The notes under the pieces: generated by a model | Told to the model about the DNA's origin: nothing | The model's input: only the letters and a program-made list of their open reading frames with translations | Database searches by the model: none | Shown here: in pieces, positions 8,576 through 46,027 of the stretch | How positions within the stretch are numbered: position 1 is the first letter of the stretch | Layout of the letters: each line of letters starts with the position of its first letter | Translations under genes and position numbers: made by a program | Sequence record: LC788709.1 | DNA length: 64,000 bases | Direction: 5' to 3' (one strand) | Source: Escherichia coli phage Shin27

Positions 8576-9186
8576 AGACTTTCCCTCAAGGAAAGTGAAA
8601 TACCAGTATATGTACCATTACTATTTAACGTAGAGCCAAAACTGTCTCCGTTCATTAATTTAGTTCTAAACAGAATACCATTAAATACCGGTTTCTCACT
8701 ACCCGTAGTAGTAATGAATAGATCAGGATAAACACTTATATTCCAAGTATTTCCTGCTGTGTTGATAGAAGTGATTTTGTACACTTTTGGATGGTTGGAC
8801 AATTTAAATAAATCGCCTGGTTTAGGCAGTCCACGAAGTGTACCTTTAGTGTCCATAATAACTATTGAACCTTTTTGTCCGGCAGGAATATTTACAGCAC
8901 TAGTATCACCACGAACTCGGAAAGCCTCATATTGTGGTAATAACACATCAATATAGCTACCTGTTCTTTTATAATCTAGAATGAATGAGTCTAATTTAGC
9001 AAATTCATCTGGGAATAATTCTGGATAAGAGATATTAATACCCCAATATTGAGCAGACACCTTAACCTCCCTAACTTTACCATTAGGTAATTCATCACGA
9101 ATCATAGGGTCATTGTCTACTAAGTTAACGCTTTCAAAACCTAACCCTGATAGCTCTGGGTTCGTGTATGGGTCTGGTAGTCTCAT
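8572..9186 (-). CDS. distal tail protein (pb9-like)
   Basis: 204-aa ORF immediately after the tape-measure gene and a promoter-like site. The position matches T5 pb9. Confidence 0.75.
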   Translation of the reverse strand: MRLPDPYTNPELSGLGFESVNLVDNDPMIRDELPNGKVREVKVSAQYWGINISYPELFPDEFAKLDSFILDYKRTGSYIDVLLPQYEAFRVRGDTSAVNIPAGQKGSIVIMDTKGTLRGLPKPGDLFKLSNHPKVYKITSINTAGNTWNISVYPDLFITTTGSEKPVFNGILFRTKLMNGDSFGSTLNSNGTYTGISLSLRESL

Positions 9187-9212
9187 AGTTAATTTCTCCT
9201 CTTAATAACAAT

Positions 9213-9241
9213 ATTATAATAGGATTGGAAAATTTTATCAA
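9213..9241 (-). promoter_or_regulatory. sigma70-type promoter upstream of the pb9-like gene
   Basis: Coding strand reads TTGATA, 17 nt, TATAAT. It follows the pb2 terminator. Confidence 0.55.
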
Positions 9242-9258
9242 GAAATTTTTATTTTTCC

Positions 9259-9289
9259 ATAAAGAAAAGGAGGACATAAAGTCCTCCTC
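9259..9289 (-). terminator. Rho-independent terminator after the tape-measure gene
   Basis: Coding strand reads GGAGGAC-TTTAT-GTCCTCC followed by TTTTCTTT. Confidence 0.7.
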
Positions 9290-9294
9290 CAGTA

Positions 9295-12200
9295 TTAAGA
9301 ATTACCAAGTGATTTCAGGGTGGTTCCATTCTCATTAAGAGCCTGTTCTACGGCATCCCTGAAAGCAGCACTGTTGCTCGAAGCAAAGTCTCGGAAGCTA
9401 GCCGCATCCATCGTACTGATGTTCAGCACAATAGGTCTACCCGATGTACCCTTTGAAGATCCTTTGAGTTCATCAGTAGGAGTAGCCTTCATCGGAACCA
9501 TAGGAGTGATTACTTCGGTACCATGTTCACCCATCTGGTAACTAACTCCAGGATACATATTACCACCTTCTGCACGGGGTACGAAAGAGTTAGCATTACC
9601 AATCCCTTGATCTCCTCGAATATAAGAAAGCTCACCTGCGTTAGCCGACATAGAAACGTCTACGTTCTTCTGGCGCTCTCCAAGAGTTAAGTAACCAGCT
9701 GTCTCAGCACCAGAGTCCCCAATAGAAGACATACCAGATGCAGAGGATGCTTGAGCAAGAGCCATAGCACCTGCTAAACCAGCCGCAACCATCAGAGGAA
9801 TAGAGAATGGATACGGAACAGCTGTTGCTGCCTGCATCACCGCTACTGCCGTCTGGATAATGATTTGCTTCTTAGCCGCATCTTGCTGGATCTTGAGCTT
9901 TTCAGCCTCTAACTTCTTGATCTTAGCTTTAGATTGCTCAGATTTACCATCACGTTTCTGTTCTGCTGCAATAGCTGCATCAATAGCACTTACCTGTTGA
10001 CCAACACTATACTGAATCATTGAAGATACAGTTTGCATACCAGCCGCTACTAGAGAAGTGGTATCCAGAGATCCTTGTGAAAACTGGATCATAGCATTAG
10101 TTAGGTTACCCATGCTTTGTGCTACAGCAGTTGCTTCGGAGTTCAGTTCAGACAGCTTAGAAATAGCCTGGTCATAGGATGCCATTCTATTCTGCATATC
10201 CATATTTGCTTTATCATCTCCTTCCAGTCCAGTTGTTGGAGTGTAAACACCACCAACAGAAGAAGTGACTTGCTGCTGCATCTGAGCATCACGTTGCATC
10301 TTAAGCTGTGCTAGAGCTGCCGAAGTTTCTTGGATTTTACGCTTATACTCTTCCTGAGCTTGTGCATTTCCTTTTGTAATTTCCAGTAAACTTTGGTACA
10401 GAGCTTGCTGTTCGGTTAGTCTCTGAGATTCCCCCGTAACGTTTCTGCTAGTCTGTGAAATATTAAGAGCTCTTTCACGTCCAGAAGCCATTTCCCTTTG
10501 CTGATCCTGACGGAATTTCCAGATTTCACGTTCAATTTGTGCCTGAGCTCGTCTTGATTGTTCAGCTTCCTTCTGCTTATCAATCTGCTTGGAGTACCAC
10601 ACATACTTCTCTTTCTCGATAGTCAGTTCAAGGTTCAACTGAGCTAAACGATATTGAGTATCTGTCATAGTACGGTTATTCAGGAGAGCAATTTCACGAT
10701 CAACACCAAGAATCTTATCGGTATAGTCCTTAACCTTCTTCTGAGCTTCCATACCCTGGTTAGTGATCTTGATACGTTCTAGCTGAATCTTAGCTATCTC
10801 ACCTTCGATTGCTTTGTTACCCTTGTTAGTTTCTAGGACACGCTTAAGAGCTGCTTCCTGTTCTTCTAACTGTTGGATTTCCAGACGTCTACCAGCTTCC
10901 TGTGCTTTCTCTTTGTCCTTAGTCTGGCTATACACTTCGGCAATCTTCTGCTGAACTTCTAGCTGATTCTTAGTCTCATTACCAGTTAATTTTACATAAC
11001 CAGCAAGAGCTTGTGAAGCAGTCTTCATCTCACTAAGAGTATTATACCCTAAGTTCAGGCTCTTAACATACTCATCAGCATTTTTACCAGTACCCGCGGA
11101 TAGAGACTCAATAGTCTTAATCGTATCTGATAAGGATGCACTAGTTTTAGCCGCAGTATTAGTATTCTGAGCGATGTTCTGGATATCGTTAGCTAAATCA
11201 CTAGCAGTTTTCTTAGCCTGATCATATGCTTTCTGCTGTTCTGTCAGTCCTTTCAGAGTTGCAGAGTTGAAGTCATAAACCGCATCAGGGTCATTTGCAT
11301 CTTTCTGTAGGTTAATTTGCTTCTGGAATTCTGGATTAGCCTTAGCAGCTGCAGCACCAGCAGCTTGGTATGCCGATTTCCATGCATTAAGATTGCCAGT
11401 TGAATCCTCTACTTCCTTATCAAGACGCTCTACCTGGAGAGCTAATGCAGCAGTATCTGCAATAAATTTCTGGTTTTCTTCAGAAGATCCTATGCGAACT
11501 CCTCCTACTTCAAAACCTCCTGCAGCTAACCCTACCGGTGCACCTTGAGCAACTAAACGAATAGCCCCTGCTGTAGATGCATCTGCTTGCTGCATACGCT
11601 TATCTAGATCAGCTTTTAACTTATTACGCTTTTCTAGAGATTCTTTGTACATATCAAGAGCTTTATTATATCCTTCCTCAGAAGCGGAAAGACTTAAAGC
11701 TACAGCACCAACGTTAGTTGGGTCAATCTGACGGTTAGTTTCTTCCTGTGCTCTAGCAGCAGAGGCCGAGATAGATGCTTGAGAAGTATAGAACACTGCG
11801 TTGATAGAATCAATTACTGGCCCTAAATACTTAGCAGCAGCCTGTTGAACCTTTCTCAGTGCAGCATCAGCATTAGCAGCAAACTGTTCCCAGGGGGTTG
11901 CACGAAGTACATCATCAAGATAGCCGAAACGTTTAGTAGATTCAGCGATAACTGCGTTAGCATATGCTTGTTGCTTCTGGAAAGTAGAGAGACTATTAAC
12001 GTTATATGTAATACCTGTGTTAGCAGCATTTAACTGTTTAACGTAGTCTGCGTAAGCATCGTTAAGACGAATAGTAACACCAAGTTCGTCCAGAAGTTCG
12101 ATTTCTTGTTTAGATACACCCTTGATTACACGGTTAAGTGCATCAGTCATATCAACACCAAGAACAGCAGCAGCACGACGAGCTACTAGACCAAATTTAT

Positions 12201-22359: not shown

Positions 22360-23676
22360 TTATTTCCCACGGGAAATTGAGTAAATTCCATAACGCAGTG
22401 CGTCACAAAGGTGAGAGTTCGCATCATGACGTGGTTTTTCACGTGATAATTTCTCTTCGCCTTCCTGGAAGTCCCACTTGTAGTTCGCTAGGGCGTGGAT
22501 CAATGAGGTACATGAAGCATCTACGATGATCTTACCTTGCTGGAACAGTGCTTGCAGGCATGCCAAACCATCTAGGACAGATTTCTTAGCAGGTGCAGAA
22601 GCGATTTCATGTTCATAGGCTAAGTCCTGACGGAACTGAGCAGCAGCGGAGTCTACAAATATACGATCAACATTATAACGATCTATGCAGTGTTGGATAT
22701 AAGCAGCGTGTTGAGCTGTAGTCTTTTCAGCTTGCTGATACTCTTCCAGTACGTAGTAAATATCTTCATCGTAGTGATACTTAATAGTAAGAACTGCTGT
22801 AGGATCACGATAACCAACGTCGATACCAAGTAATGTTTCGAATGCTTCATCATCTTTAAAGAAGTGACGCATACCCTTGAGGTCTTTAACATGCTCTATA
22901 GCATTGAAAGTATCAAAGATCTGACCTTCGAATACGGAGAAGTCAGCTTCATATTCTTGGCGGAAGTAGTTTTTACTAACAGTACGACGCGCTTCCTCGA
23001 TATCGTTCAGGTCAGCACGTGGGTTATCACGATATGTACCATGAATGGATACCCAGTTAGGTAACGTTTCGTTAAATCCTTTCTCGTAGAACTCTTTGAA
23101 CCAGTTACCACCACGAGGTGTGGAAATAAATAGAGCTTTAGAGTTTGGCTTATCTAGGGTAGGACGTAACTGAATATCGAAAGCTGCACCACCAACGTCG
23201 GAAATCGCTGCTTCGTCAAAAATGATGAAGTCATATGAACGACCAACCGCGGAGTCAGCCTGAGCCGCAGAAGCTAGTTTAAAGAGAGAACCATTCGCCA
23301 GTTCAATCTCTTTATCTTTGGCATTCTCACGTTCAGTCTGTAGTCCATACTTCTTAATAAGACCACGAATCTGAGACCAACCGATATTAGCTAGGGAGTA
23401 GTTAGGTGCAACTACCAGCACCTTCACATTAGGTTCCAGAAGTTTTAGGAACCCAAGTGTATATGCGATGAATGACTTACCTACACGACGTGATACACAT
23501 GCAGTCACGAAGCGGTGTTTTGGGTCTTCCAGCGCATTAATGATTGCAATCTGAGGGGCATTAGGTGTAATCCCCTCTTGAGCTAAAATGCTAGAGACTG
23601 GCAGACGGAAGAATCGTTTGTCAATACCAAAGTCAATAACATCTGTGGTGTTAATATAGTCTCTAGAGACTTTCAT
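22360..23676 (-). CDS. terL: terminase large subunit
   Basis: 438-aa ORF with Walker A-like VSRRVGKS and Walker B-like YDFIIFDEAA, followed by a nuclease-type C-terminal half. Confidence 0.93.
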   Translation of the reverse strand: MKVSRDYINTTDVIDFGIDKRFFRLPVSSILAQEGITPNAPQIAIINALEDPKHRFVTACVSRRVGKSFIAYTLGFLKLLEPNVKVLVVAPNYSLANIGWSQIRGLIKKYGLQTERENAKDKEIELANGSLFKLASAAQADSAVGRSYDFIIFDEAAISDVGGAAFDIQLRPTLDKPNSKALFISTPRGGNWFKEFYEKGFNETLPNWVSIHGTYRDNPRADLNDIEEARRTVSKNYFRQEYEADFSVFEGQIFDTFNAIEHVKDLKGMRHFFKDDEAFETLLGIDVGYRDPTAVLTIKYHYDEDIYYVLEEYQQAEKTTAQHAAYIQHCIDRYNVDRIFVDSAAAQFRQDLAYEHEIASAPAKKSVLDGLACLQALFQQGKIIVDASCTSLIHALANYKWDFQEGEEKLSREKPRHDANSHLCDALRYGIYSISRGK

Positions 23677-24158
23677 TATCTCTTACCTCCTCCTGCTAGA
23701 GCGGTAATAAGATTCATATAGTTTTCGTCACCACTTCCAGCAATAATATTATTCTGAATATTAGTCTGGTTAGCCGGAGTACGGGCTGCTGCCTTCACTT
23801 TCTCCAGTTCTACCATCATTTTCATTTCTTCCATCTTCATCTTGTGCGCCTTCCAGAGAATATCCATGATATCCTGGTCAGAACCCATGCCAGTTTCTTC
23901 AAGTTCTTCCAGCTTACGCTTGATAACTTCGTCAAGAACTCCGAATAAGCGGTCACGATTACGGAAGCCACTTTCCATAAAGATATCGTTGAGATAGTTT
24001 TTAACTTCCCCACGATTCATTATATCACGGAATGCAATCTCGGACATTCCAAGACTACGAGCGGCGGCAGGAACATCACTACCGCACTGTAAATAGGCTT
24101 CAATAACATCCATGCCTTCGGGAGACATGAGATCGGGAACTAATACATCATTTGCCAT
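23676..24158 (-). CDS. terS: terminase small subunit
   Basis: 160-aa ORF whose stop overlaps the terL start. An N-terminal HTH-like segment ([17 protein letters not shown]) is present. Confidence 0.7.
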
Positions 24159-27300: not shown

Positions 27301-27413
27301 GTTAGCGCTAATTACCAATTCTCGAAATCTCATAAGATTACACATGAAGGTGTGCCCAGAGGTTACCTAGATGAGAATGAGTCTCATTACCGCCCCGGTA
27401 CTTAGCAAGCTAA

Positions 27414-27463: not shown

Positions 27464-28198
27464 TTAGGCGACTTTTAATTTATCAATGAATTGTTGCGGG
27501 CTGCAACTATATTCTGCGCGTTCTTCCTCGGTCATACCTTCCCAACACATTTTTAAACGGTCGGCTAGGAATTGATAATCATTATCATCATCTAATGATT
27601 CATCAATAAAGGTTTCACCGATCAATGTTACGCCGATTGATAGGATATCATTAACGGCTTGAGCGTCCAGCGTTTTAAATCCAGCACTTGCCGCCGCCGA
27701 TAATACGCCTTTATGATCATCAATCATCGTAAAATCAGCGTTCGGATATAACTGTTTAAACAGTTCAAAGTAATAGCTTTTGTATACAGCGTCTTTACTA
27801 TGATATATTTCGCTAACCTTATCCGCTTCAAAGTATTTGTGTAATGTATCGCGAGAGAATACGCGGATATTGCTATTTCCGCGCCCTCGCAAGCCTTGTT
27901 TACGCAAATAAAAGTAATCGCTTTTAGACATAAGGCGCGCGGTACAAATAATATTTAAAGTATTTGCATCATTCATACATTGGCGCATATATTCAACCAA
28001 TGGCAATAAAGAATCCTGCATAATTAAATCATGTTTACAGGCTTCGCGTGAATACTTATTTAAATTTAAATTCCCGTTATCATCAAAGCAAGGCGCTACA
28101 CGGTGGAAAGAATTAATGATAGTTCCGTCTAAGTCCCAAATCATAACGCGGGAAATATGCGGGAAAGCGCGGGCAATATTCAAGGTTACTTGATTCAT
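27464..28198 (-). CDS. dmp: 5'-deoxyribonucleotidase (T5 Dmp-like, HAD family)
   Basis: 244-aa ORF with the HAD motif I (IWDLDGTIINS). It sits in the pre-early position next to A1. Confidence 0.8.
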   Translation of the reverse strand: MNQVTLNIARAFPHISRVMIWDLDGTIINSFHRVAPCFDDNGNLNLNKYSREACKHDLIMQDSLLPLVEYMRQCMNDANTLNIICTARLMSKSDYFYLRKQGLRGRGNSNIRVFSRDTLHKYFEADKVSEIYHSKDAVYKSYYFELFKQLYPNADFTMIDDHKGVLSAAASAGFKTLDAQAVNDILSIGVTLIGETFIDESLDDDNDYQFLADRLKMCWEGMTEEERAEYSCSPQQFIDKLKVA

Positions 28199-29041: not shown

Positions 29042-30706
29042 TTATGCAAAGAATTTACCGTTTTTGAAATCAATCAAAGTACGTTGCCCGTTTGCATAGG
29101 TAATTAAATGCGTTTGCGTCCAGCTTGACGCGCCCACGTTGTAGCCCATATCAAGGGAACCAGCAACGCCAGCGGTATAAACGCCGCCGTAAATGCTAGC
29201 CGTGTGAGTGTGACCAGTGTTAAGGCGTCCCAACTTTTTAAACTGCTTAGGATTGCCCCGACTGCCGTTAATGCCATTGTGACCATGTACGCCGCATTCA
29301 ATGCCAGCGATTTTAAAGGACTGGTCAGTAGTCAAAAAAATGGCGTTAAATTCGCATCCTGCAACGTTTCTAAGCGCATAATCTAACACGTTAAAGGTAT
29401 CATCCTTTTCAGCAATAGCGGCGTAAATCGCAGCGTTTAGACGGTGATACAGTTCCGCGTTTGCGGGATCATCTTTAATGTTTGCGTTACGATCATCTAA
29501 CCAGCGGGATAATGCTAAATCATGGTTAGATTCCACAATGATTGTTTGACTAAAATCACGTTCCATAGATTCTAATACGCGTCCAGTATCGATAAGATCA
29601 TCAATAACTTTATCACGTCCGGCGGCGTATTGTTTCGCAAGGAATACACCACTAGCGCGGTTATGATGGTTACGCGATGTAAAATCATGCACGTCATGAA
29701 TAAATTGATATTTCGGTTTAAGAATATCAAGCAAGCTGTTTTCACTAGCCCATGAAGCGACGGCGCAATCATCATCTAATTTTTCGGCGTGAATATCGCC
29801 ATATTGCAAGCCTAGAACATGATCGGACGTTTCAAAACATCCGGTAGGCATAGCGCAAACATTCAAATCATAGAACATTCCGCTTTCATCCATTGTTTCA
29901 ATCTGGCGAGCATAAAATTCGCCGTCGTCGTCGAACTCTACCAGCAAAGCGCCATAATTATGTAAAGCCTCAGCTTTTTGACCTGCTTTCTGCTGAATGT
30001 AGTTTTTAAGCGTAGCCGTTCCGGTTGAATACATACGGCACACTACTTCACCTTTTAACGCTGGCACACTTTCAGCGGTAATTTTAGCGTGACCAATTGC
30101 CAGACCTTCAATATTTAAAGCCGTGGCGGTTTCTGCGAATCCTGAAAGCGGGTAATCTGCCGTTGGTAAAACGTTAATTTCAGCCATGAAAGCAAAGCGG
30201 CGGTTATTTAAAAATACGTTTTTATCACAAACATATTTATCAAATGCGGGATCGTATTTAATACCGTTTGCCCCTTCCCCGTTCTGAAATCCGTTTTTGT
30301 TGTAAATGAATTTGCTAACAAGTAATTCAGCGCCGCAATATTCAGCGAATTTTTCCAGACTTGCTAAAAAGTTTTTATGCGGGAAAGTATTATTTTGAAT
30401 CGACGTTAGAATAAAACGGCGACCGGACTTAACTTCCCATTGCTCAACGGTGCTAGAAACAATTCCCGCCGCCTCTGGGCGATCATCGTTTTTAATCGCC
30501 TTTTCGGCTTTTGCCGCTTTCGGTTTCGCTGGTTTATTTGCTTCCAGCCAGTCACAAATTGCGGTCGAATGTTTCGGCGTACCATAAACAGCTTTTGAAA
30601 TATCGTCGCAAACTTCCAATTTAGTAGCGCGTAAACGCTTACCGTAGAAGTTAAAATCTGCGGCCATTTTCAAAATTTGAGCTTGTTTTTCTGCGGAAAT
30701 ATTCAT
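29042..30706 (-). CDS. A1: pre-early protein A1 (metallophosphoesterase/Mre11-like fold)
   Basis: 554-aa ORF with calcineurin-like motifs in order: GDIHAE, IHDVHD, ESNHD, GVHGHNG, GHTHT. Size and position match T5 A1. Confidence 0.85.
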   Translation of the reverse strand: MNISAEKQAQILKMAADFNFYGKRLRATKLEVCDDISKAVYGTPKHSTAICDWLEANKPAKPKAAKAEKAIKNDDRPEAAGIVSSTVEQWEVKSGRRFILTSIQNNTFPHKNFLASLEKFAEYCGAELLVSKFIYNKNGFQNGEGANGIKYDPAFDKYVCDKNVFLNNRRFAFMAEINVLPTADYPLSGFAETATALNIEGLAIGHAKITAESVPALKGEVVCRMYSTGTATLKNYIQQKAGQKAEALHNYGALLVEFDDDGEFYARQIETMDESGMFYDLNVCAMPTGCFETSDHVLGLQYGDIHAEKLDDDCAVASWASENSLLDILKPKYQFIHDVHDFTSRNHHNRASGVFLAKQYAAGRDKVIDDLIDTGRVLESMERDFSQTIIVESNHDLALSRWLDDRNANIKDDPANAELYHRLNAAIYAAIAEKDDTFNVLDYALRNVAGCEFNAIFLTTDQSFKIAGIECGVHGHNGINGSRGNPKQFKKLGRLNTGHTHTASIYGGVYTAGVAGSLDMGYNVGASSWTQTHLITYANGQRTLIDFKNGKFFA

Positions 30707-31100: not shown

Positions 31101-31517
31101 TTATTCACCTGCGGCCTGTTTTACTTCCTCCGCTACGCCTAACAATTGCGCTACGGCGTCCAGCGTTTCCAGTTTAGCACTTTCAAGGCTTGCCAGATCG
31201 TCGGCATCTTTTACGATACCTGAATCAATGGCGTGTTTAGCGATGACGCGCACATAGTGAGCTTTACGAATTGAGCTACCGCCGCCAACTTTGCGAGGTT
31301 TATCGCTTTTCTGATAGGCTTTTGCGCTTGTCAGTTTAGAACGTACAGACACCGGACTAGCAGCACCAACGGCGGCGGCAATTTCTTTCAGGCCGTCACT
31401 GTTAGCAAATTCACTTCCGCTTTTAGCGACCATTTCAGAATACATAGAAACAGCTTTTTCGGTGTTTTCTTCGTTCCAAGAGAATTTTGCGGTTTTTTCG
31501 GTTTTAACGTTAGACAT
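31101..31517 (-). CDS. A2: pre-early protein A2-like (probable DNA-binding)
   Basis: 138-aa ORF immediately upstream of A1 in the transcription direction. Assignment rests on recalled T5 order and size only. Confidence 0.6.
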   Translation of the reverse strand: MSNVKTEKTAKFSWNEENTEKAVSMYSEMVAKSGSEFANSDGLKEIAAAVGAASPVSVRSKLTSAKAYQKSDKPRKVGGGSSIRKAHYVRVIAKHAIDSGIVKDADDLASLESAKLETLDAVAQLLGVAEEVKQAAGE

Positions 31518-36755: not shown

Positions 36756-36995
36756 ATGGCTGTAAGAATTTTACGATATGTAGAACGTAAAGAAACCGAT
36801 ATTATGCAGCATCATTTAACTGATGGGCAATACGCGCAATTTTTAGAAATGCAGAAAAGCGGAGCTAGTACGGCGGCGCTAGGGGCGTGGATCAATTCAG
36901 TTTCAACGTGTACGCATTTTGATTCATACGGGTATACGCCAGCCGAAACCGTCCAGATCTTTGACGACTACGAGAAGGAATACATAGCAGACTAA
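36756..36995 (+). CDS. hypothetical protein (last gene of cassette)
   Basis: 79-aa ORF with a TAGGAG SD. An AATCATTCTCATT operator-like half-site lies at 36729-36741 and a terminator at 37001-37031. Confidence 0.5.
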   Translation: MAVRILRYVERKETDIMQHHLTDGQYAQFLEMQKSGASTAALGAWINSVSTCTHFDSYGYTPAETVQIFDDYEKEYIAD

Positions 36996-37000
36996 TAATA

Positions 37001-37031
37001 GCGGGGCGCAACTATCGGCCCCGCCTTTTCT
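37001..37031 (+). terminator. Rho-independent terminator at the end of the plus-strand cassette
   Basis: GCGGGGC-N10-GCCCCGC followed by CTTTTCT. Confidence 0.65.
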
Positions 37032-37083
37032 GCCTGCAAACAAATTTCCCCTTATTAAAATACCTCCTCCAAAAATAAACGCG

Positions 37084-37110
37084 TTAGAATGCGTTACAGA
37101 GCGTTTTAGA
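37084..37110 (+). repeat. 27-bp perfect direct repeat, copy 2
   Basis: Identical to 32841-32867. It lies 31 nt upstream of the near-consensus LexA box. Confidence 0.85.
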
Positions 37111-37140
37111 GCTATATTAGAGTTATTCACTACGTAGGAA

Positions 37141-37160
37141 TACTGTATATTTATACAGTA
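37141..37160. promoter_or_regulatory. LexA (SOS) box, near-consensus
   Basis: TACTGTATATTTATACAGTA differs at one position from the E. coli consensus TACTGTATATATATACAGTA. Confidence 0.65.
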
Positions 37161-37168
37161 GAATAACC

Positions 37169-37177
37169 TGTGGATAA
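37169..37177 (-). promoter_or_regulatory. DnaA box (perfect, reverse orientation)
   Basis: The plus strand reads TGTGGATAA. An 8/9 box, AGTGGATAA, lies at 37181-37189. Confidence 0.6.
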
Positions 37178-37241
37178 GTCAGTGGATAACGCCTCAAAAT
37201 CGCTAGGATTTTGTCAAGTCAAATCGTGCTGTTAATAAACC

Positions 37242-37250
37242 TGTGGATAA
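37242..37250 (-). promoter_or_regulatory. DnaA box (perfect, reverse orientation)
   Basis: The plus strand reads TGTGGATAA. Confidence 0.6.
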
Positions 37251-37283
37251 CTTAAATAGCAGTGTTTCTCACTTCGCTTTCTA

Positions 37284-37413
37284 AATGCGAATCATTCTCA
37301 TTATGCGACTCATTCGTATTCAATTCTGTAAATGATAATCATTCCCATTCCACTTTCTAAATGCGAGTAGTTCTCATTCGCATTCAACTTCTCAAATGCG
37401 AATCAATCTCATT
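37284..37413. repeat. five copies of a 19-bp imperfect palindrome (AATGCGAAT-N-ATTCTCATT family)
   Basis: Copies lie at 37284-37302, 37303-37320 (degenerate), 37331-37349, 37360-37378 and 37395-37413. A lone half-site lies at 36729-36741. Confidence 0.75.
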
Positions 37414-37432
37414 ATCAGTTGCATTTCGGCAG

Positions 37433-37463
37433 GCAGGGCATTTTCTATTTGCCCTGCGCTTTT
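37433..37463 (+). terminator. terminator-like hairpin inside the repeat region
   Basis: GCAGGGC-N11-GCCCTGC followed by GCTTTT. Confidence 0.4.
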
Positions 37464-38065
37464 GTGCAAATCCGACATCTGCCCCCACGGATTACGTGCC
37501 AGCGTGCATGTGCGAATCCGACAATTTTTGGTAGTGTGCAAATCCGATGGGAAATATTTTTTATATGTGCGAATCCGACAATGAATTTTCCTAAAAACTC
37601 CAGCAATCCGCAACTGCGATGCAATCCAGCTGGATTTACTAGAGTATGCGCAAATCCGACATGAGTTTATTTGTGCAAAACCGACAAGATTTTTGTGACT
37701 TCGATGAGAGGGTGTGTGATTGTGAGGGTTTGGGGAGAAGTGCGAATCCGATGAGATTTTGGGAGGAACTACGGAAGGAGCAGCGGTGATGGTGCTTTAG
37801 CACCGGTTTGCTGCATTTTTGAGGATAATGCGGGATGTTTTGGCTAGAATTGAGATTAGGGGAGATAAAGCGAAATTTTATTAGCAAAATGGGGCAAAAT
37901 CGCTTGACAAGTGAAAATTCCTGTGGCTCTAAAAAACTCAGGCAAATATGGGCCTTCGGCCCGAAATAATGCTGCTATTTTCAGTGTTCCTAAAAACTTT
38001 GGAGACTCCTATCAATGTGCAAATCCGACCATAAATTTCTAGAAACACAGTGTGCAAATCCGATA
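37464..38065 (+). repeat. iteron-like array: nine same-orientation copies of GTGC(A/G)AATCCGA(C/T)N
   Basis: Copies start at 37464, 37510, 37536, 37567, 37648 (variant), 37673 (variant), 37740, 38017 and 38052. Spacing is irregular and no ORF is supported. Confidence 0.85.
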
Positions 38066-38224
38066 GCAATTTCCAGAAATGTGTTTTGGAAAAATGTCTC
38101 CTAGAAATAACCGCCCTCCCTATAACCGCCCTGTATTAAACCGCCTATTGCTGGAGTTTCTAGGAACATGAAAACCGCCTGAGTTGGCGAGAGTTTTCCT
38201 AGAAACTTAGGAGTCTACTAGAAA
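38036..38224. repeat. six TTCTAGAA-type palindromes interleaved with four (T/A)AACCGCC(C)T direct repeats
   Basis: The TAG-centred sites lie at 38036-45, 38071-80 (degenerate), 38098-107, 38157-66, 38195-205 and 38214-24. The AACCGCC repeats lie at 38108, 38123, 38137 and 38171. Confidence 0.75.
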
Positions 38225-38492
38225 GTGTTGTGCTATCCTAGCAGATGAGCGGCAACAGGTGTATCATCTTGAACATTAATTTATCTATTCAACAGTATTA
38301 GTTTTTATATAAGTATAAGATCCCCAGGGGATTGTGAGAGATGCTCCACCCCTGGGATACGAATTGCGTGAGATGGTACAAAACTTCTGAAGATTTCCCT
38401 AGCCCTCCGACAAGCTACGGGGGAAATAGAAGTTTCCCATCCACCATCCGTATCCGGGTGGATCTCTTTATTCTATGTTATTTCATAGAGTT

Positions 38493-38521
38493 ATTATAAC
38501 ATGCAGAAATCATAACGTCAA
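38493..38521 (-). promoter_or_regulatory. sigma70-type promoter reading into ORF-free hairpin-rich DNA
   Basis: Coding strand reads TTGACG, 17 nt, TATAAT, just downstream of the stop of the 296-aa gene. Confidence 0.5.
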
Positions 38522-38528
38522 GTAGAGT

Positions 38529-39419
38529 TTATTCATCGAACATGAGATTTCCTTTCATCCCCATCTCCGCATACTCCATGAGTTCTCCTAGGGATCTCAC
38601 AGGGTAATCTACTTTACTGAAGTTATCATAGATCTTACATGAACTCTCGTACAACTCGTTAGGTATCTGCAATTTGTTATCAGTTAGCTTCTCATAACGT
38701 GTAGAAGATTTTGTACCTTCAAACAGAACTGCAATAACTGCGGCGATTTGTTTGGTAAGATCATCTGCTCCTAGAATTATTCTATTAATAGCAATCGTTA
38801 CTTCATGCTTAGGTTTCACAGGTGGAAGGATAGGCTTGAGATCCTTAGGTAAAGGTTCTGTTCCTAGGAATCCTTCTTTTGTGCGGAACCAATAATTATC
38901 TAGATCAGATATTGTCTTAGACTTATTCCATATAGTGAAGCAAGGTTTATTTCCTTCACGATCTCTGTATTCACGAACTGGAAGATAATGATCAGGGAAT
39001 GAGTTGAGTGCATCATGCATTGGTGAGCCTGTCTTTTTAAATGACAAACCGTACAACTCATTATAATTCATAACTTCATCTTCATAAACATGGAAATCTT
39101 TATATGCTGGAAGATTAAACCATTCCTGAAGTGAATGAACTGCAAAACGTTGTGCCCAAGCATGCATCACAAGAACTCTGTACTCTTTTACTTCATCTTT
39201 TGGAGAAGTACCTCTAACTGTTCTAGCTGACCGAATACAGAACATCTCAACAACACGTCTCTCGTTTAAAGAAAGCTCAGAGTAACAACGTTCATGGCAA
39301 CCTTCTAGCATTTCTAGAAGTTCACGTAGTTTCTCTACATCGACCGGTGGAAAAGGTCTCTCTTCCACCGCGAATTTACCAACTACACCTTTCGGCTTTC
39401 TATTACTATAAAATCCCAT
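38529..39419 (-). CDS. hypothetical early protein
   Basis: 296-aa ORF, the last gene of the leftward early transcription unit. Confidence 0.6.
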   Translation of the reverse strand: MGFYSNRKPKGVVGKFAVEERPFPPVDVEKLRELLEMLEGCHERCYSELSLNERRVVEMFCIRSARTVRGTSPKDEVKEYRVLVMHAWAQRFAVHSLQEWFNLPAYKDFHVYEDEVMNYNELYGLSFKKTGSPMHDALNSFPDHYLPVREYRDREGNKPCFTIWNKSKTISDLDNYWFRTKEGFLGTEPLPKDLKPILPPVKPKHEVTIAINRIILGADDLTKQIAAVIAVLFEGTKSSTRYEKLTDNKLQIPNELYESSCKIYDNFSKVDYPVRSLGELMEYAEMGMKGNLMFDE

Positions 39420-45436: not shown

Positions 45437-46027
45437 TCAAACATTGATATCTCCCCTCAATACCGCTGCCACATCTTCATCGATTTGGAGTATTTCACCA
45501 GTAGTGCAGTTAACCACTTTATCATAGCTTGTGAACTTGCCAGACACAATATCCTCTAGAGGAATAGGAGTCTTGCTCATCTCAAAAGAGACGTTGATAT
45601 AACGTGGGTCACGCACAGAATTGGTGTGCACATGTCCGTGAATGTTTAGCTTACCACGAAGTTCTGCTTCGTGCAATGGACAATGTGACAGCCAAAACTT
45701 CTTGCCACCACCTGTTTGCTTACCTAGAGCCTGAATATCATCATAAACGTCTACAAGATCTTTAATACGCAGACCCTGACGTTCAGCATCGTGGTTGCCC
45801 ATGATTAATTGGTTAGGCACATTGTAGATAACCGACTTCAATTTAGCCAACCCTTCACGCCCCACGGCAATATCTCCTAGCAATACAAGTTTTGTACGCT
45901 TGCCAATGTGCTTGGACAAAGTATCTAGGATATATTCATCGTGCTCTTTCCTGTTCTTAAACCACGGACGGAAGCGAAGAGTTCCAGGATGGTCTAGGTG
46001 CAAATCCGACCAGAATTTAACTTTCAT
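45437..46027 (-). CDS. metallophosphoesterase
   Basis: 196-aa ORF with motifs SDLHLDH, LLGDI, GNHD and HGHVH. Confidence 0.75.
   Translation of the reverse strand: MKVKFWSDLHLDHPGTLRFRPWFKNRKEHDEYILDTLSKHIGKRTKLVLLGDIAVGREGLAKLKSVIYNVPNQLIMGNHDAERQGLRIKDLVDVYDDIQALGKQTGGGKKFWLSHCPLHEAELRGKLNIHGHVHTNSVRDPRYINVSFEMSKTPIPLEDIVSGKFTSYDKVVNCTTGEILQIDEDVAAVLRGDINV

What the first reader, a model, noticed from the sequence alone, without database searches (positions are those of the whole stretch)
37464..38065. Nine same-orientation copies of a 14-bp iteron (GTGCRAATCCGAYN) in 600 bp of ORF-free DNA
Seen: copies start at 37464, 37510, 37536, 37567, 37648, 37673, 37740, 38017 and 38052, all on the plus strand, with spacings of 26-277 bp. 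Two copies are slight variants (GCGCAAATCCGACA and GTGCAAAACCGACA). The ORFs in the track here (37392-37887) are repeat-driven and lack RBSs. Inference: directional iterons suggest cooperative binding of one protein. This could act as an origin-like element, a partition- or packaging-type site, or the directional stop/restart signal for two-step DNA transfer. It is not CRISPR, because the repeats are too short, the spacing is irregular and there are no cas genes.
Basis: seen in the sequence. Interest (0 to 1): 0.65.

Follow-up and report, generated by a model that had tools for sequence, protein, structure and literature searches.

The report
Known T5 "direct repeat D" array
The nine repeats are real, but they are the "direct repeat D" array already annotated at the end of phage T5's terminal repeat, a conserved row of protein-docking sites whose binding protein and role are still unproven.

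Summary
Nine plus-strand copies of GTGCRAATCCGAY lie at the stated coordinates, against 0.17 expected by chance in the window. A tenth copy at 45998 sits inside a gene.

The window is a T5-like phage (Demerecviridae, close to Epseptimavirus). The array is the "direct repeat D" (DRD) set already annotated in the T5 GenBank record AY587007 and described by Davison as part of "Repeat Region 3". That is the non-coding injection-stop region at the right end of the left terminal repeat. The feature itself is therefore not new.

What the tools added:
- The array starts 4 nt after the homologue of T5's 7.9% nick site.
- It straddles the right boundary of the terminal repeat (predicted at window 37929). 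Seven copies lie inside the repeat and two lie outside it.
- This layout recurs in Klebsiella, Pantoea and Vibrio phages whose spacers no longer align.
- The motif drifts by lineage, which suggests that a protein reads it.

Its function is still unknown in the literature up to 2026. My best guess (0.35) is that the copies are docking sites for the pre-early DNA-binding protein A2, used to restart DNA transfer. A terminase recognition site flanking the packaging cut is nearly as likely (0.30). An origin, a partition site, CRISPR and DnaA boxes are all unlikely.

The parts
37464..37476 (+). DRD copy 1 (GTGCAAATCCGAC). It starts 4 nt after the nick-site homologue.
   Evidence: homologous to T5 'direct repeat D copy 1'
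37510..37522 (+). DRD copy 2
37536..37548 (+). DRD copy 3
37567..37579 (+). DRD copy 4
37648..37660 (+). DRD copy 5 (variant GCGCAAATCCGAC)
37673..37685 (+). DRD copy 6 (variant GTGCAAAACCGAC). With its preceding T it is the only copy that fits the DnaA-box consensus.
37740..37752 (+). DRD copy 7, the last copy inside the terminal repeat. It is present in Epseptimavirus-type relatives and absent from T5.
38017..38029 (+). DRD copy 8, the first copy outside the terminal repeat (+87 in the window from the repeat end; +86 in nearly all relatives)
38052..38064 (+). DRD copy 9, outside the terminal repeat (+122 in the window; +121 in nearly all relatives)
37451..37459 (+). GCCCTGCGC, the homologue of T5's 'major single-stranded nick 1, 7.9%'. 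CTGCGC followed by N4 and then DRD copy 1 is kept in the Escherichia, Klebsiella, Pantoea, Vibrio and Proteus phages examined, and in variant form in one of the two Aeromonas phages.
37902..37929 (+). The most conserved block of the region (TTGACA at 37905-37910). It ends at the predicted right end of the terminal repeat, which is the virion's right terminus (...CCTGTGGCTC | TAAAAAAC).
   Evidence: The repeat ends of T5 (10139), BF23 (9743) and Sw2 (9816) fall at the same homologous base, and GZ8's (9949) appears to by coordinate correspondence. At least 8 deposited genomes end there. This is one of two blocks with at least 95% identity.
31101..31517 (-). A2 gene (138 aa). It is a pre-early DNA-binding protein and the leading candidate reader of the array.
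   Evidence: phrog_1725; PF26822 Phage_T5_A2; helix-turn-helix model; conserved recognition helix
23676..24158 (-). Small terminase subunit (160 aa; the T5 homologue is annotated 'SciB'). It is the rival candidate reader.
   Evidence: phrog_3802; PF26823; T5 annotation; structure model
45998..46010 (+). Tenth exact copy, isolated, inside a minus-strand metallophosphatase-like ORF (codons WSDLHL).
   Evidence: not conserved in T5

Best explanation
The array is the 'direct repeat D' (DRD) element of the T5-type injection-stop region, known as Repeat Region 3. It lies at the junction between the left terminal repeat and the unique genome. The copies work as a row of same-orientation docking sites of about 15 bp, (T)ATGTGCRAATCCGAY(A), for one sequence-specific DNA-binding protein encoded by the phage.

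My preferred reader is A2. A2 is the essential pre-early protein, described as a DNA-binding dimer and modelled here with a helix-turn-helix (HTH) domain. The proposed sequence of events is as follows. After first-step transfer (FST), DNA entry stalls at about 7.9% of the genome. A2 is made from the DNA that has already entered. Together with A1, it captures the DRD sites, which are the first DNA to the right of the stall point, and so re-engages or pulls in the rest of the genome (second-step transfer, SST).

Shown here:
- the identity of the array with T5 DRD;
- its position relative to the nick site and the terminal-repeat end;
- conservation of the motif across the family, with drift by lineage.

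Inferred, not shown: that a protein binds the sites, that the protein is A2, and the restart mechanism.
For: - T5 record AY587007 annotates 'direct repeat D copy 1-9' at 9672-10409, in the same order and with nearly the same spacing as the window.
- Davison lists 'nine DRD repeats' in Repeat Region 3.
- The motif has sharp edges, with information content of 1.0-2.0 bits across the 13 core positions and much lower values in the flanks.
- It persists in Klebsiella Sugarland and GZ8, Pantoea AAS21 and Vibrio Cody, River4 and pVp-1, whose spacers do not align.
- Among 21 close relatives, DRD columns are 0.82 identical against 0.70 for neighbouring non-DRD columns (p = 5e-4).
- The motif changes by lineage. 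Vibrio 70E37.1 and VspSw_1 keep GTGCRAA but change the 3' half. Aeromonas phages have GTACTWAWYCGAY-like copies. Proteus Stubb keeps one copy plus inverted CTGCAAATCC-like copies.
- A2's predicted recognition helix (residues 55-64, VRSKL) is 87-100% conserved over V58-L62 and 'RKxH[YF]VR' at 81-100% over its fixed residues. VRSKL is kept even in Vibrio phages with only 38-40% overall A2 identity. It differs in Stubb (VRTKL) and Aeromonas (VRQKL), and the RK..VR segment differs in 70E37.1, VspSw_1, Stubb and Aeromonas.
- By contrast, the small terminase's predicted recognition helix (residues 40-47) is only 19-68% conserved among close relatives.
- The A2 model shows an HTH domain, a disordered Gly-rich linker of about 20 residues and a helical C-terminal domain. 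That layout could tolerate irregular site spacing.
- The literature describes A2 as an essential DNA-binding protein required for SST, with no known target.
- Copy 1 sits 4 nt from the 7.9% nick that marks the FST boundary.
Against: - The co-variation rests on about three independent lineage changes. A phage whose A2 has VRGKL still carries the canonical motif.
- The model does not explain why the array always straddles the terminal-repeat end, or why two to six copies, depending on lineage, lie outside the repeat.
- Davison places the shear point (about 9618 in T5) to the left of DRD copy 1. The sites may therefore still be outside the cytoplasm when A2 has to act.
- A2 is reported to be a dimer, and the nearby palindromes would suit a dimer better than an asymmetric site.
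- Foldseek found no significant structural relative for A2.
- No binding data exist.
Confidence: 0.35

Rival explanations
1. The array is a terminase recognition site, a bipartite pac-like or cosB-like element. In this reading, small terminase (TerS) oligomers bind the left cluster (copies 1-7) and the right cluster (copies 8-9). The two clusters flank the conserved core where the concatemer is cut to make the virion's right end. Packaging would then start there and run leftward.
For: - The predicted terminal-repeat end (37929) lies in the gap between the two clusters.
- The same base is the repeat end in T5, BF23 and Sw2, and apparently in GZ8. At least 8 deposited genomes terminate there.
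- The layout 'cluster, then G-rich tract with TTGACA and the end, then cluster' recurs in Sugarland, AAS21, Cody, pVp-1 and L118.
- The block next to the cut is the most conserved part of the region.
- No recognition site for T5 terminase turned up in my literature searches, and no DRD copy lies near the left repeat boundary.
- From general knowledge, P1 pac (4+3 hexamers), SPP1 pacL/pacR and lambda cosB all place repeated TerS sites beside the cut.
- Because the left end is ejected first, the right end should be packaged first (inference).
Against: - TerS's predicted HTH recognition helix is poorly conserved. It reads SEIAFRDIM in the window, EEPKFREIM in Sugarland, SQEDFVAIY in AAS21 and PVAEVEAQL in Cody, although all four carry the same motif.
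- The TerS model has low confidence overall (pLDDT 57).
- Extra exact copies occur in T5 at about 12074 and 79035, far from any cut.
- The first copy tracks the nick and FST boundary rather than the cut.
Confidence: 0.3
2. The array is part of the stop signal itself. A pre-existing host or virion protein binds the DRD copies and blocks DNA passage until A1 and A2 remove it.
For: - From general knowledge of T5 biology, the stop does not need new phage proteins; the papers read here state only that A1 and A2 are needed to resume transfer.
- The motif class follows host group: enterics have the canonical form, Vibrio phages a relaxed 3' half, and Aeromonas phages a variant.
- Host-factor sites lie just upstream: consensus DnaA boxes at 37169 and 37242, and Fur-box-like palindromes at 37286-37411.
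- In T5 the array spans about 740 bp. That is roughly the length of DNA held in a 250-nm tail (tail length; the comparison is my inference).
Against: - No known host factor has this consensus (checked from memory only).
- No array of the motif exists in any Escherichia, Salmonella, Klebsiella or Vibrio chromosome among 185,579 species genomes.
Confidence: 0.12
3. The copies are weak DnaA boxes that extend the DnaA-binding platform Davison proposed for the stop signal.
For: - TGTGCAAAT matches the reversed DnaA consensus TGTGNAWAA at 8 of 9 positions.
- Two consensus boxes lie 215-295 bp upstream in the same orientation.
- Davison's model invokes membrane-bound DnaA.
Against: - Only copy 6 fits the consensus exactly.
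- The 3' half, TCCGAY, is as conserved as the 5' half, and DnaA would not explain that.
- Vibrio phages have GGTGC and Aeromonas phages GTAC at the core, while keeping perfect DnaA boxes nearby.
- From general knowledge, low-affinity DnaA sites in oriC are closely and regularly spaced; the 25-277 bp spacing here is not like that.
Confidence: 0.04
4. The array is a replication-origin iteron set or a partition (centromere-like) site.
For: The copies are direct repeats with DnaA boxes nearby.
Against: - Spacing is irregular.
- No Rep or Par gene is adjacent.
- Davison cites origin mapping near the centre of T5 DNA, and replication genes are not yet in the cell during FST.
- From general knowledge, a virulent phage with a linear genome has no obvious need for partition.
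Confidence: 0.04

Closest known systems
T5 'direct repeat D' (DRD copies 1-9) in Repeat Region 3, the injection-stop region (GenBank AY587007; attributed by Davison 2020, as read here, to a 1987 sequencing study and the T5 genome paper)
   Same: It has the same 13-15 bp motif, strand and order: DnaA boxes, then palindromes, then the nick site, then DRD, then the repeat end, then DRD. Spacing is nearly identical, at -466, -420, -394, -363, -282 and -257 on one side of the repeat end and +86 and +121 on the other.
   Different: The window's phage has a seventh inside-repeat copy at -190, as Sw2 does. It lacks T5's copy at +258 and T5's copies at about 12074 and 79020/79035. It has its own stray copy at 45998.
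Terminase recognition sites with repeats beside the cut: P1 pac (4+3 hexamers), SPP1 pacL/pacC/pacR, lambda cosB R sites
   Same: Short repeated motifs sit in two clusters that flank the point where the virion end is made. Bent or T-rich DNA follows many copies. The comparison itself comes from general knowledge.
   Different: No binding or cutting data exist for T5. All DRD copies point the same way, whereas lambda R3 is inverted. The array spans about 600 bp rather than 100-200 bp. The TerS recognition helix is not conserved.
Adenovirus packaging domain (A repeats A1-A7)
   Same: About seven same-orientation short repeats lie within a few hundred bp of one genome end (general knowledge; the abstract of PMC5033970 mentions a packaging domain near the left end).
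   Different: It is a eukaryotic virus with unrelated proteins and a different motif. This is an analogy only.
Plasmid and phage replication iterons
   Same: Direct repeats of one motif lie near DnaA boxes.
   Different: From general knowledge, iterons are 17-22 bp, regularly spaced and next to their rep gene and an AT-rich unwinding element. Here spacing runs from 25 to 277 bp and there is no rep gene.

Membership tests
T5 DRD repeats (Repeat Region 3 / injection-stop region) | Motif identical to the T5 DRD sequence (GTGCRAATCCGAY) | tested here: met
   The nine copies in the T5 array read GTGCRAATCCGAY, the same as in the window.
T5 DRD repeats (Repeat Region 3 / injection-stop region) | Located in the non-coding gap between the last pre-early ORF and the first early gene, at the right end of the terminal repeat | tested here: met
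   The window gap runs from 36995 to 38529. The homologous T5 gap is 8657-10856, with the repeat end at 10139. The region is 84-94% identical to the best-matching T5-like phages listed.
T5 DRD repeats (Repeat Region 3 / injection-stop region) | Same order of neighbours: palindrome D with paired DnaA boxes, DRC palindromes, the 7.9% nick site, then DRD | tested here: met
   In the window, DnaA boxes lie at 37169 and 37242, palindromes at 37286-37411, GCCCTGCGC at 37451 and DRD from 37464.
Terminase recognition (pac / cosB-type) site | Lies immediately beside the terminase cut that creates a virion end | tested here: met
   The repeat end, known by homology in four phages, and the deposited record ends both fall between the two DRD clusters. 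The end was not measured for this phage.
Terminase recognition (pac / cosB-type) site | Bound by the small terminase subunit and required for packaging | not testable with these tools
   Only indirect evidence is available. The TerS recognition helix is poorly conserved although the motif is invariant.
Replication iterons | Regularly spaced tandem repeats next to a cognate rep gene and an AT-rich unwinding element | tested here: not met
   Spacings are 46, 26, 31, 81, 25, 67, 277 and 35 bp. No rep gene is adjacent. GC content is 0.39-0.48 across the array, with no AT-rich dip.
DnaA boxes | 9-mer TTWTNCACA (reverse complement TGTGNAWAA) | tested here: not met
   Only copy 6 fits. The conserved 3' half is unexplained, and the core differs in Vibrio and Aeromonas phages.
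CRISPR array | Repeats of about 28-37 bp with regular unique spacers and cas genes | tested here: not met
   The core is 13-15 bp, spacing is irregular, and the homologous T5 annotation of this region shows no cas genes.
Structured RNA or tRNA-derived element | Match to an Rfam family or a tRNA model | tested here: not met
   There were no Rfam hits better than E = 0.6 and ARAGORN found nothing. The motif resembles a tRNA T-arm (GTTCRAATCC) only at 2 mismatches.

The most novel reading that the evidence does not exclude
The DRD array is the long-sought cis-acting target of A2. In this reading, A2 dimers have their HTH domains on flexible linkers and dock on the co-oriented sites just beyond the stall point. 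That binding is what restarts and directs second-step DNA transfer. The motif and the A2 recognition helix would co-evolve across the Demerecviridae. The position astride the terminal-repeat end could then mean that the same element also marks the packaging cut.
Probability: 0.3. Interest if true: 0.6.

Novelty: already known. Interest (0 to 1): 0.3.

Why it matters
How T5 stops DNA entry at 8% and then restarts it has been unsolved for decades. Papers from 2026 still call the mechanism unknown. The DRD array is a conserved, repeated and clearly non-coding signal sitting at the stop/restart point and at the packaging cut.

Showing which protein reads it, A2 or the small terminase, would give the first defined protein-DNA contact for either process. 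The finding itself adds nothing new, because the array has been annotated in the T5 GenBank record and described in print for years. What this work adds is a sharper and cheap test: gel-shift assays with two small proteins on one 650-bp fragment.

Tried and rejected
- **Rfam and tRNA scans of the region:** nothing found.
- **RNA fold of the DNA just right of the repeat end:** not better than shuffles, z = -0.84.
- **Promoter scan:** no more sites than chance on the plus strand. The conserved TTGACA at 37905 has no good -10 element.
- **Scan of one genome per 185,579 bacterial species for two adjacent copies:** 9 hits. Two are short MAG contigs carrying T5-like sequence. The rest are unrelated tandem repeats in cyanobacteria, Myxococcota, Bacteroidales and others. 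None comes from a host genus, so this gives no support for a host regulon.
- **The same scan of IMG/VR:** 47 stretches, mostly from contigs of 100-125 kb, the size of T5-like genomes; three come from shorter contigs of 47-96 kb.
- **Co-variation of A2 Ser60 with the GTGC half-site:** weakened, because a phage with VRGKL keeps the canonical motif.
- **Foldseek of the A2 model against the PDB:** no significant match. The best hit was E = 0.97, to a transposase HTH and to Myb domains.
- **TerS model:** low confidence (pLDDT 57), so I used it only to place the HTH helices.
- **Link between DRD and nick sites in general:** rejected. T5 nicks 2-4 share GCCCTGCGC and a downstream TTAC but have no adjacent DRD copy.
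- **Terminal-repeat ends of Sugarland and Stubb:** the PhageTerm ends fall at the CTGCGC nick site, not at the TTGACA...CTC site. I treat these as probable nick artefacts.
- **CRP, LexA, IHF and Fis consensus comparisons:** done by eye only, and none fits.
- **Davison 2015 paper:** could not be retrieved.

Full report
**1. Observation**

A pattern search for GTGCRAATCCGAY with up to one mismatch found ten matches in the 64-kb window. The tenth is an exact copy at 45998. Shuffles gave a mean of 0.17 matches, and none reached 10.

The repeat finder recovered the same nine-member family. Start-to-start spacings are 46, 26, 31, 81, 25, 67, 277 and 35 bp. The two variant copies are as described.

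The region holds only short overlapping mechanical ORFs, no tRNA and no Rfam family.

**2. What the window is**

The 1.6-kb region matches 518 phage records, nearly all T5-like phages of Salmonella, Escherichia and Klebsiella. The best matches are 92-94% identical, for example Escherichia phage Wa28 and Salmonella phages INF11 and S132. The A1 protein encoded at 29042-30706 (-) is 100% identical to that of Wa28.

In genomes deposited in the conventional orientation, the match lies at about 9-11 kb, which is the right end of the left terminal repeat. The window is a permuted assembly in which the terminal repeat appears once.

**3. The array is already annotated**

GenBank record AY587007 (phage T5) annotates 'direct repeat D copy 1' to 'copy 9' at 9672-10409. 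Immediately before copy 1 it annotates 'major single-stranded nick 1, 7.9%' at 9661-9668. The left terminal repeat ends at 10139, between copies 6 and 7. The T5 sequence shows the same motif in the same order as the window.

[quoted passage not shown] This is the untranslated region thought to hold the injection stop signal, and he states that it is conserved among T5-like phages. [quoted passage not shown]

Two papers from 2026 still describe the stop signal and the restart mechanism as poorly understood.

**4. Anatomy relative to the terminal repeat**

The annotated repeat ends of T5 (10139), BF23 (9743, by PhageTerm) and Salmonella phage Sw2 (9816, by PhageTerm) all fall at the same homologous base...CCTGTGG(A/C)TC | TAAAAA. 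Klebsiella phage GZ8's annotated end (9949) appears to fall there too, judged by coordinate correspondence with Sugarland rather than from its own sequence. At least eight deposited genomes that carry both repeats end with ...TTGACAAGTGAAAATT(T/C)(C/T)TGTGGCTC.

By homology, the window's repeat ends at 37929. Copies 1-7 are therefore inside the repeat and present at both ends of the virion DNA. Copies 8-9 lie 87 and 122 bp outside it and are present once.

By homology to T5 position 1, the left repeat boundary is near 27351. That gives a repeat of about 10.6 kb, but this boundary is less certain.

In 19 Tequintavirus and Epseptimavirus sequences, copy positions relative to the repeat end are almost fixed. 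They are -466, -420, -394, -363, -282, -257 and sometimes -190 on one side, and +86, +121 and sometimes +258 on the other.

**5. Conservation beyond close relatives**

Klebsiella phage Sugarland shares only about 80 alignable bases with this region, around the repeat end. It nevertheless has six copies to the left of the TTGACA...CCTGTGGCTC core and four tandem copies to the right.

Pantoea phage AAS21 has eight copies.

Vibrio phages Cody and River4 have A1 proteins only about 31% identical to the window's. They carry eight to nine copies in the same orientation relative to A1 and A2, again split by the deposited repeat boundary.

In four of the five lineages aligned (window, T5, AAS21 and Cody), and at Sugarland's first strong copy, the first copy follows CTGCGC by exactly 4 nt. 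The same arrangement is seen in Proteus phage Stubb, Vibrio phages pVp-1 and VspSw_1, and, in variant form, Aeromonas phage AhSzw-1.

A matrix of 44 sites gives 1.0-2.0 bits per position (mostly 1.5-2.0) over GTGCRAATCCGAY, with much lower values in the flanks. The preferred flanks are (T)AT upstream and A downstream.

Among 21 close relatives, DRD columns are more conserved than neighbouring non-DRD columns, 0.82 against 0.70 (Mann-Whitney p = 5e-4). The two best-conserved blocks are 37902-37919, just left of the repeat end, and 37958-37975.

**6. The motif drifts by lineage**

- Vibrio phages 70E37.1 and VspSw_1 keep GTGCRAA but change the 3' half to WYCTAK or TTCAAY.
- pVp-1 and Cody mix canonical and relaxed copies.
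- Aeromonas phages AhSzw-1 and TS3 have GTACTWAWYCGAY-like and GTAGAAATTCGAC-like copies.
- Proteus phage Stubb keeps one copy after the nick site, plus three or four inverted CTGCAAATCC-like copies.

Sharp motif edges, retention across unalignable spacers, uniform orientation and drift by lineage together point to a row of sites for one sequence-specific protein. That protein is most simply a phage protein, although the motif classes also follow host groups.

**7.

In the T5 sequence examined (positions 1-111,500: the left repeat plus the unique region), exact copies outside the array occur at about 12074 (inside ORF019) and about 79035. The second has a one-mismatch neighbour 15 bp upstream, and both lie inside the D13/exo2 gene. 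All are on the plus strand. The T5 record already lists these as DRD copies 10-12.

My calculated chance expectation for an exact match in that much sequence is about 0.013, so these stray copies are not random. Their meaning is unknown.

The window's stray copy at 45998 encodes WSDLHL in a metallophosphatase-like ORF and has no counterpart in T5.

Two-copy scans found the array only on large phage-type contigs in IMG/VR, most of them the size of T5-like genomes. Among bacterial genomes, it appeared only on two short T5-like contigs inside MAGs, plus unrelated tandem repeats.

**8. Which protein reads it?**

*A2.* A2 (31101-31517, -) belongs to phrog_1725 'DNA binding protein' and Pfam Phage_T5_A2. 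AlphaFold (pLDDT 84) gives three parts: an N-terminal helical domain with a helix-turn-helix whose recognition helix is residues 55-64 (PVSVRSKLTS), a disordered Gly-rich linker at 65-84, and a four-helix C-terminal domain. No solved structure matches significantly.

Over 31 homologues, V58, R59, K61 and L62 are 97-100% conserved and S60 is 87% conserved. R84, K85, H87, V89 and R90 are 97-100% conserved. VRSKL is kept in all the Vibrio phages examined, at only 38-40% overall identity. RKxH[YF]VR is kept in Cody and pVp-1.

VRSKL becomes VRTKL in Stubb and VRQKL in the Aeromonas phages. The RK..VR segment is altered in 70E37.1, VspSw_1, Stubb and the Aeromonas phages. These are the lineages whose DRD differs.

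This is suggestive only. It rests on about three independent changes, and a phage whose A2 has VRGKL still carries the canonical motif.

*The small terminase.* TerS (23676-24158, -) belongs to phrog_3802, and its T5 homologue is annotated 'SciB'. Its model places an HTH at helices 29-35 and 40-47 (overall pLDDT is only 57, but 74-81 in this part). Residues 40-47 are 19-68% conserved among relatives that are 52-95% identical. The helix differs completely between the window, Sugarland, AAS21 and Cody, although all four share the same motif.

On this criterion A2 fits an invariant 13-bp site better than TerS does.

**9. Geometry argues the other way**

The array always flanks the point where the virion's right end is made. 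A conserved core sits between the clusters, consisting of a G-rich tract, TTGACA and the repeat end. From general knowledge, this is the layout of P1 pac, SPP1 pacL/pacC/pacR and, loosely, lambda cosB.

The left end is ejected first, so the right end should be packaged first. The start of packaging would then lie at this cut (inference). One paper states the opposite for T5, so the direction needs checking. No DRD copy lies near the left repeat boundary.

The A2 model does not explain why copies lie outside the repeat.

**10. Verdict on mechanism**

With high confidence (about 0.9), this is an array of protein-docking sites and the same element as T5 DRD.

| Explanation | Probability |
|---|---|
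| A2, restart of second-step transfer | 0.35 |
| Small terminase, packaging recognition | 0.30 |
| Host or virion roadblock factor | 0.12 |
| Weak DnaA boxes | 0.04 |
| Origin or partition site | 0.04 |

The remainder covers an unidentified phage protein or no function.

The DnaA idea fails for three reasons. Only copy 6 fits the consensus. The 3' half is equally conserved. Vibrio and Aeromonas phages alter the TGTG core while keeping perfect DnaA boxes nearby.

**11. Novelty and score**

The array is already annotated and published, and its conservation among T5-like phages is already stated in print. The following points may be new, but they are incremental and computational:

- its reach into Vibrio and Aeromonas phages in variant forms;
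- its constant position astride the repeat end;
- the contrast between the A2 and TerS recognition helices.

Interest is 0.3. The element is a known feature with an unknown function that touches an old open question.

Noticed in passing
window 45998-46010 (+); T5 AY587007 at about 12074 and 79020/79035: Isolated exact DRD copies lie inside coding regions, all on the plus strand. In T5 the chance expectation is about 0.013, yet two exact copies occur outside the array, plus one copy with a single mismatch. The T5 record lists them as DRD copies 10-12. The positions are not shared between T5 and the window.
   Followed up: partly
window 37286-37300, 37333-37347, 37397-37411; also 27372-27386 and 27573-27587: The palindromes just left of the nick site (T5 'direct repeat C / palindromes E-I') fit TGAnAATnATTnTCA, which is close to the Fur-box core TGATAATCATTATCA. 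The pattern is enriched in the window, with 22 matches against 7.4 expected. One copy lies about 20-35 nt inside the predicted left end of the terminal repeat, and 27573 is a perfect match. Similar palindromes occur in all the Demerecviridae lineages I read.
   Followed up: partly
window 37690-37900: A strongly G-rich, C-poor tract (GC skew up to 0.58) has TTTGGGG, TTTTGGG and GGGAGG runs on the strand that ends 3' at the virion's right terminus. It looks telomere-like. Equivalent G-rich tracts sit between the DRD clusters in Sugarland, Cody, pVp-1 and the Aeromonas phages.
   Followed up: partly
window 37905-37962: TTGACA is conserved at this spot in every lineage examined but has no convincing -10 element. 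Just right of the repeat end is a hairpin, GGGCC-TTCG-GCCC. Locus L118 has ATGGCC-TTCG-GGCCAT, a change on both sides of the stem that keeps the pairing.
   Followed up: partly
window 38107-38180; also 27388-27394 and T5 positions 33-39: AACCGCC(CT) is repeated three or four times about 180-250 bp right of the repeat end (3 matches against 0.26 expected). It is also seen at the homologous spot in T5, Sugarland, Stubb and the Aeromonas phages. An ACCGCC also sits about 35 nt inside the left genome end.
   Followed up: partly
window 37585-37607 and 38147-38169: A 23-nt inverted repeat, 91% complementary (ATTTTCCTAAAAACTCCAGCAAT / ATTGCTGGAGTTTCTAGGAACAT), brackets the repeat end and the inner DRD copies. 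It is also visible in the T5 sequence.
   Followed up: no
window 38521-38493 (-) and 38332-38320 (-): A near-consensus sigma-70-type promoter-like site (TTGACG, 17 nt, TATAAT, with an extended TG) points leftward into the non-coding region. A terminator-like hairpin lies about 160 nt downstream, so a small untranslated transcript is possible.
   Followed up: no
L005 (Sugarland) 1522; L008 (Stubb) 2362: The PhageTerm-derived terminal-repeat ends deposited for Sugarland and Stubb fall exactly at the CTGCGC nick site, not at the TTGACA...CTC site used by T5, BF23, Sw2 and GZ8. The natural nick probably produced a false terminus call.
   Followed up: partly
L012, L019 (MAG contigs SABI01000336.1, RZZU01000077.1); L014, L015, L017, L018, L020: Two short contigs binned into Spirochaetia and Clostridia MAGs carry T5-like DRD sequence, which is likely mis-binned phage DNA. 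Unrelated tandem repeats in cyanobacteria, a Myxococcota MAG and a Bacteroidales MAG happen to contain the same 13-mer.
   Followed up: partly
T5 tRNA genes (about 29193, 33511, 41362 in AY587007): The DRD core differs by only two bases from the tRNA T-arm sequence GTTCRAATCC. tRNA genes are the only near-matches on the minus strand.
   Followed up: no
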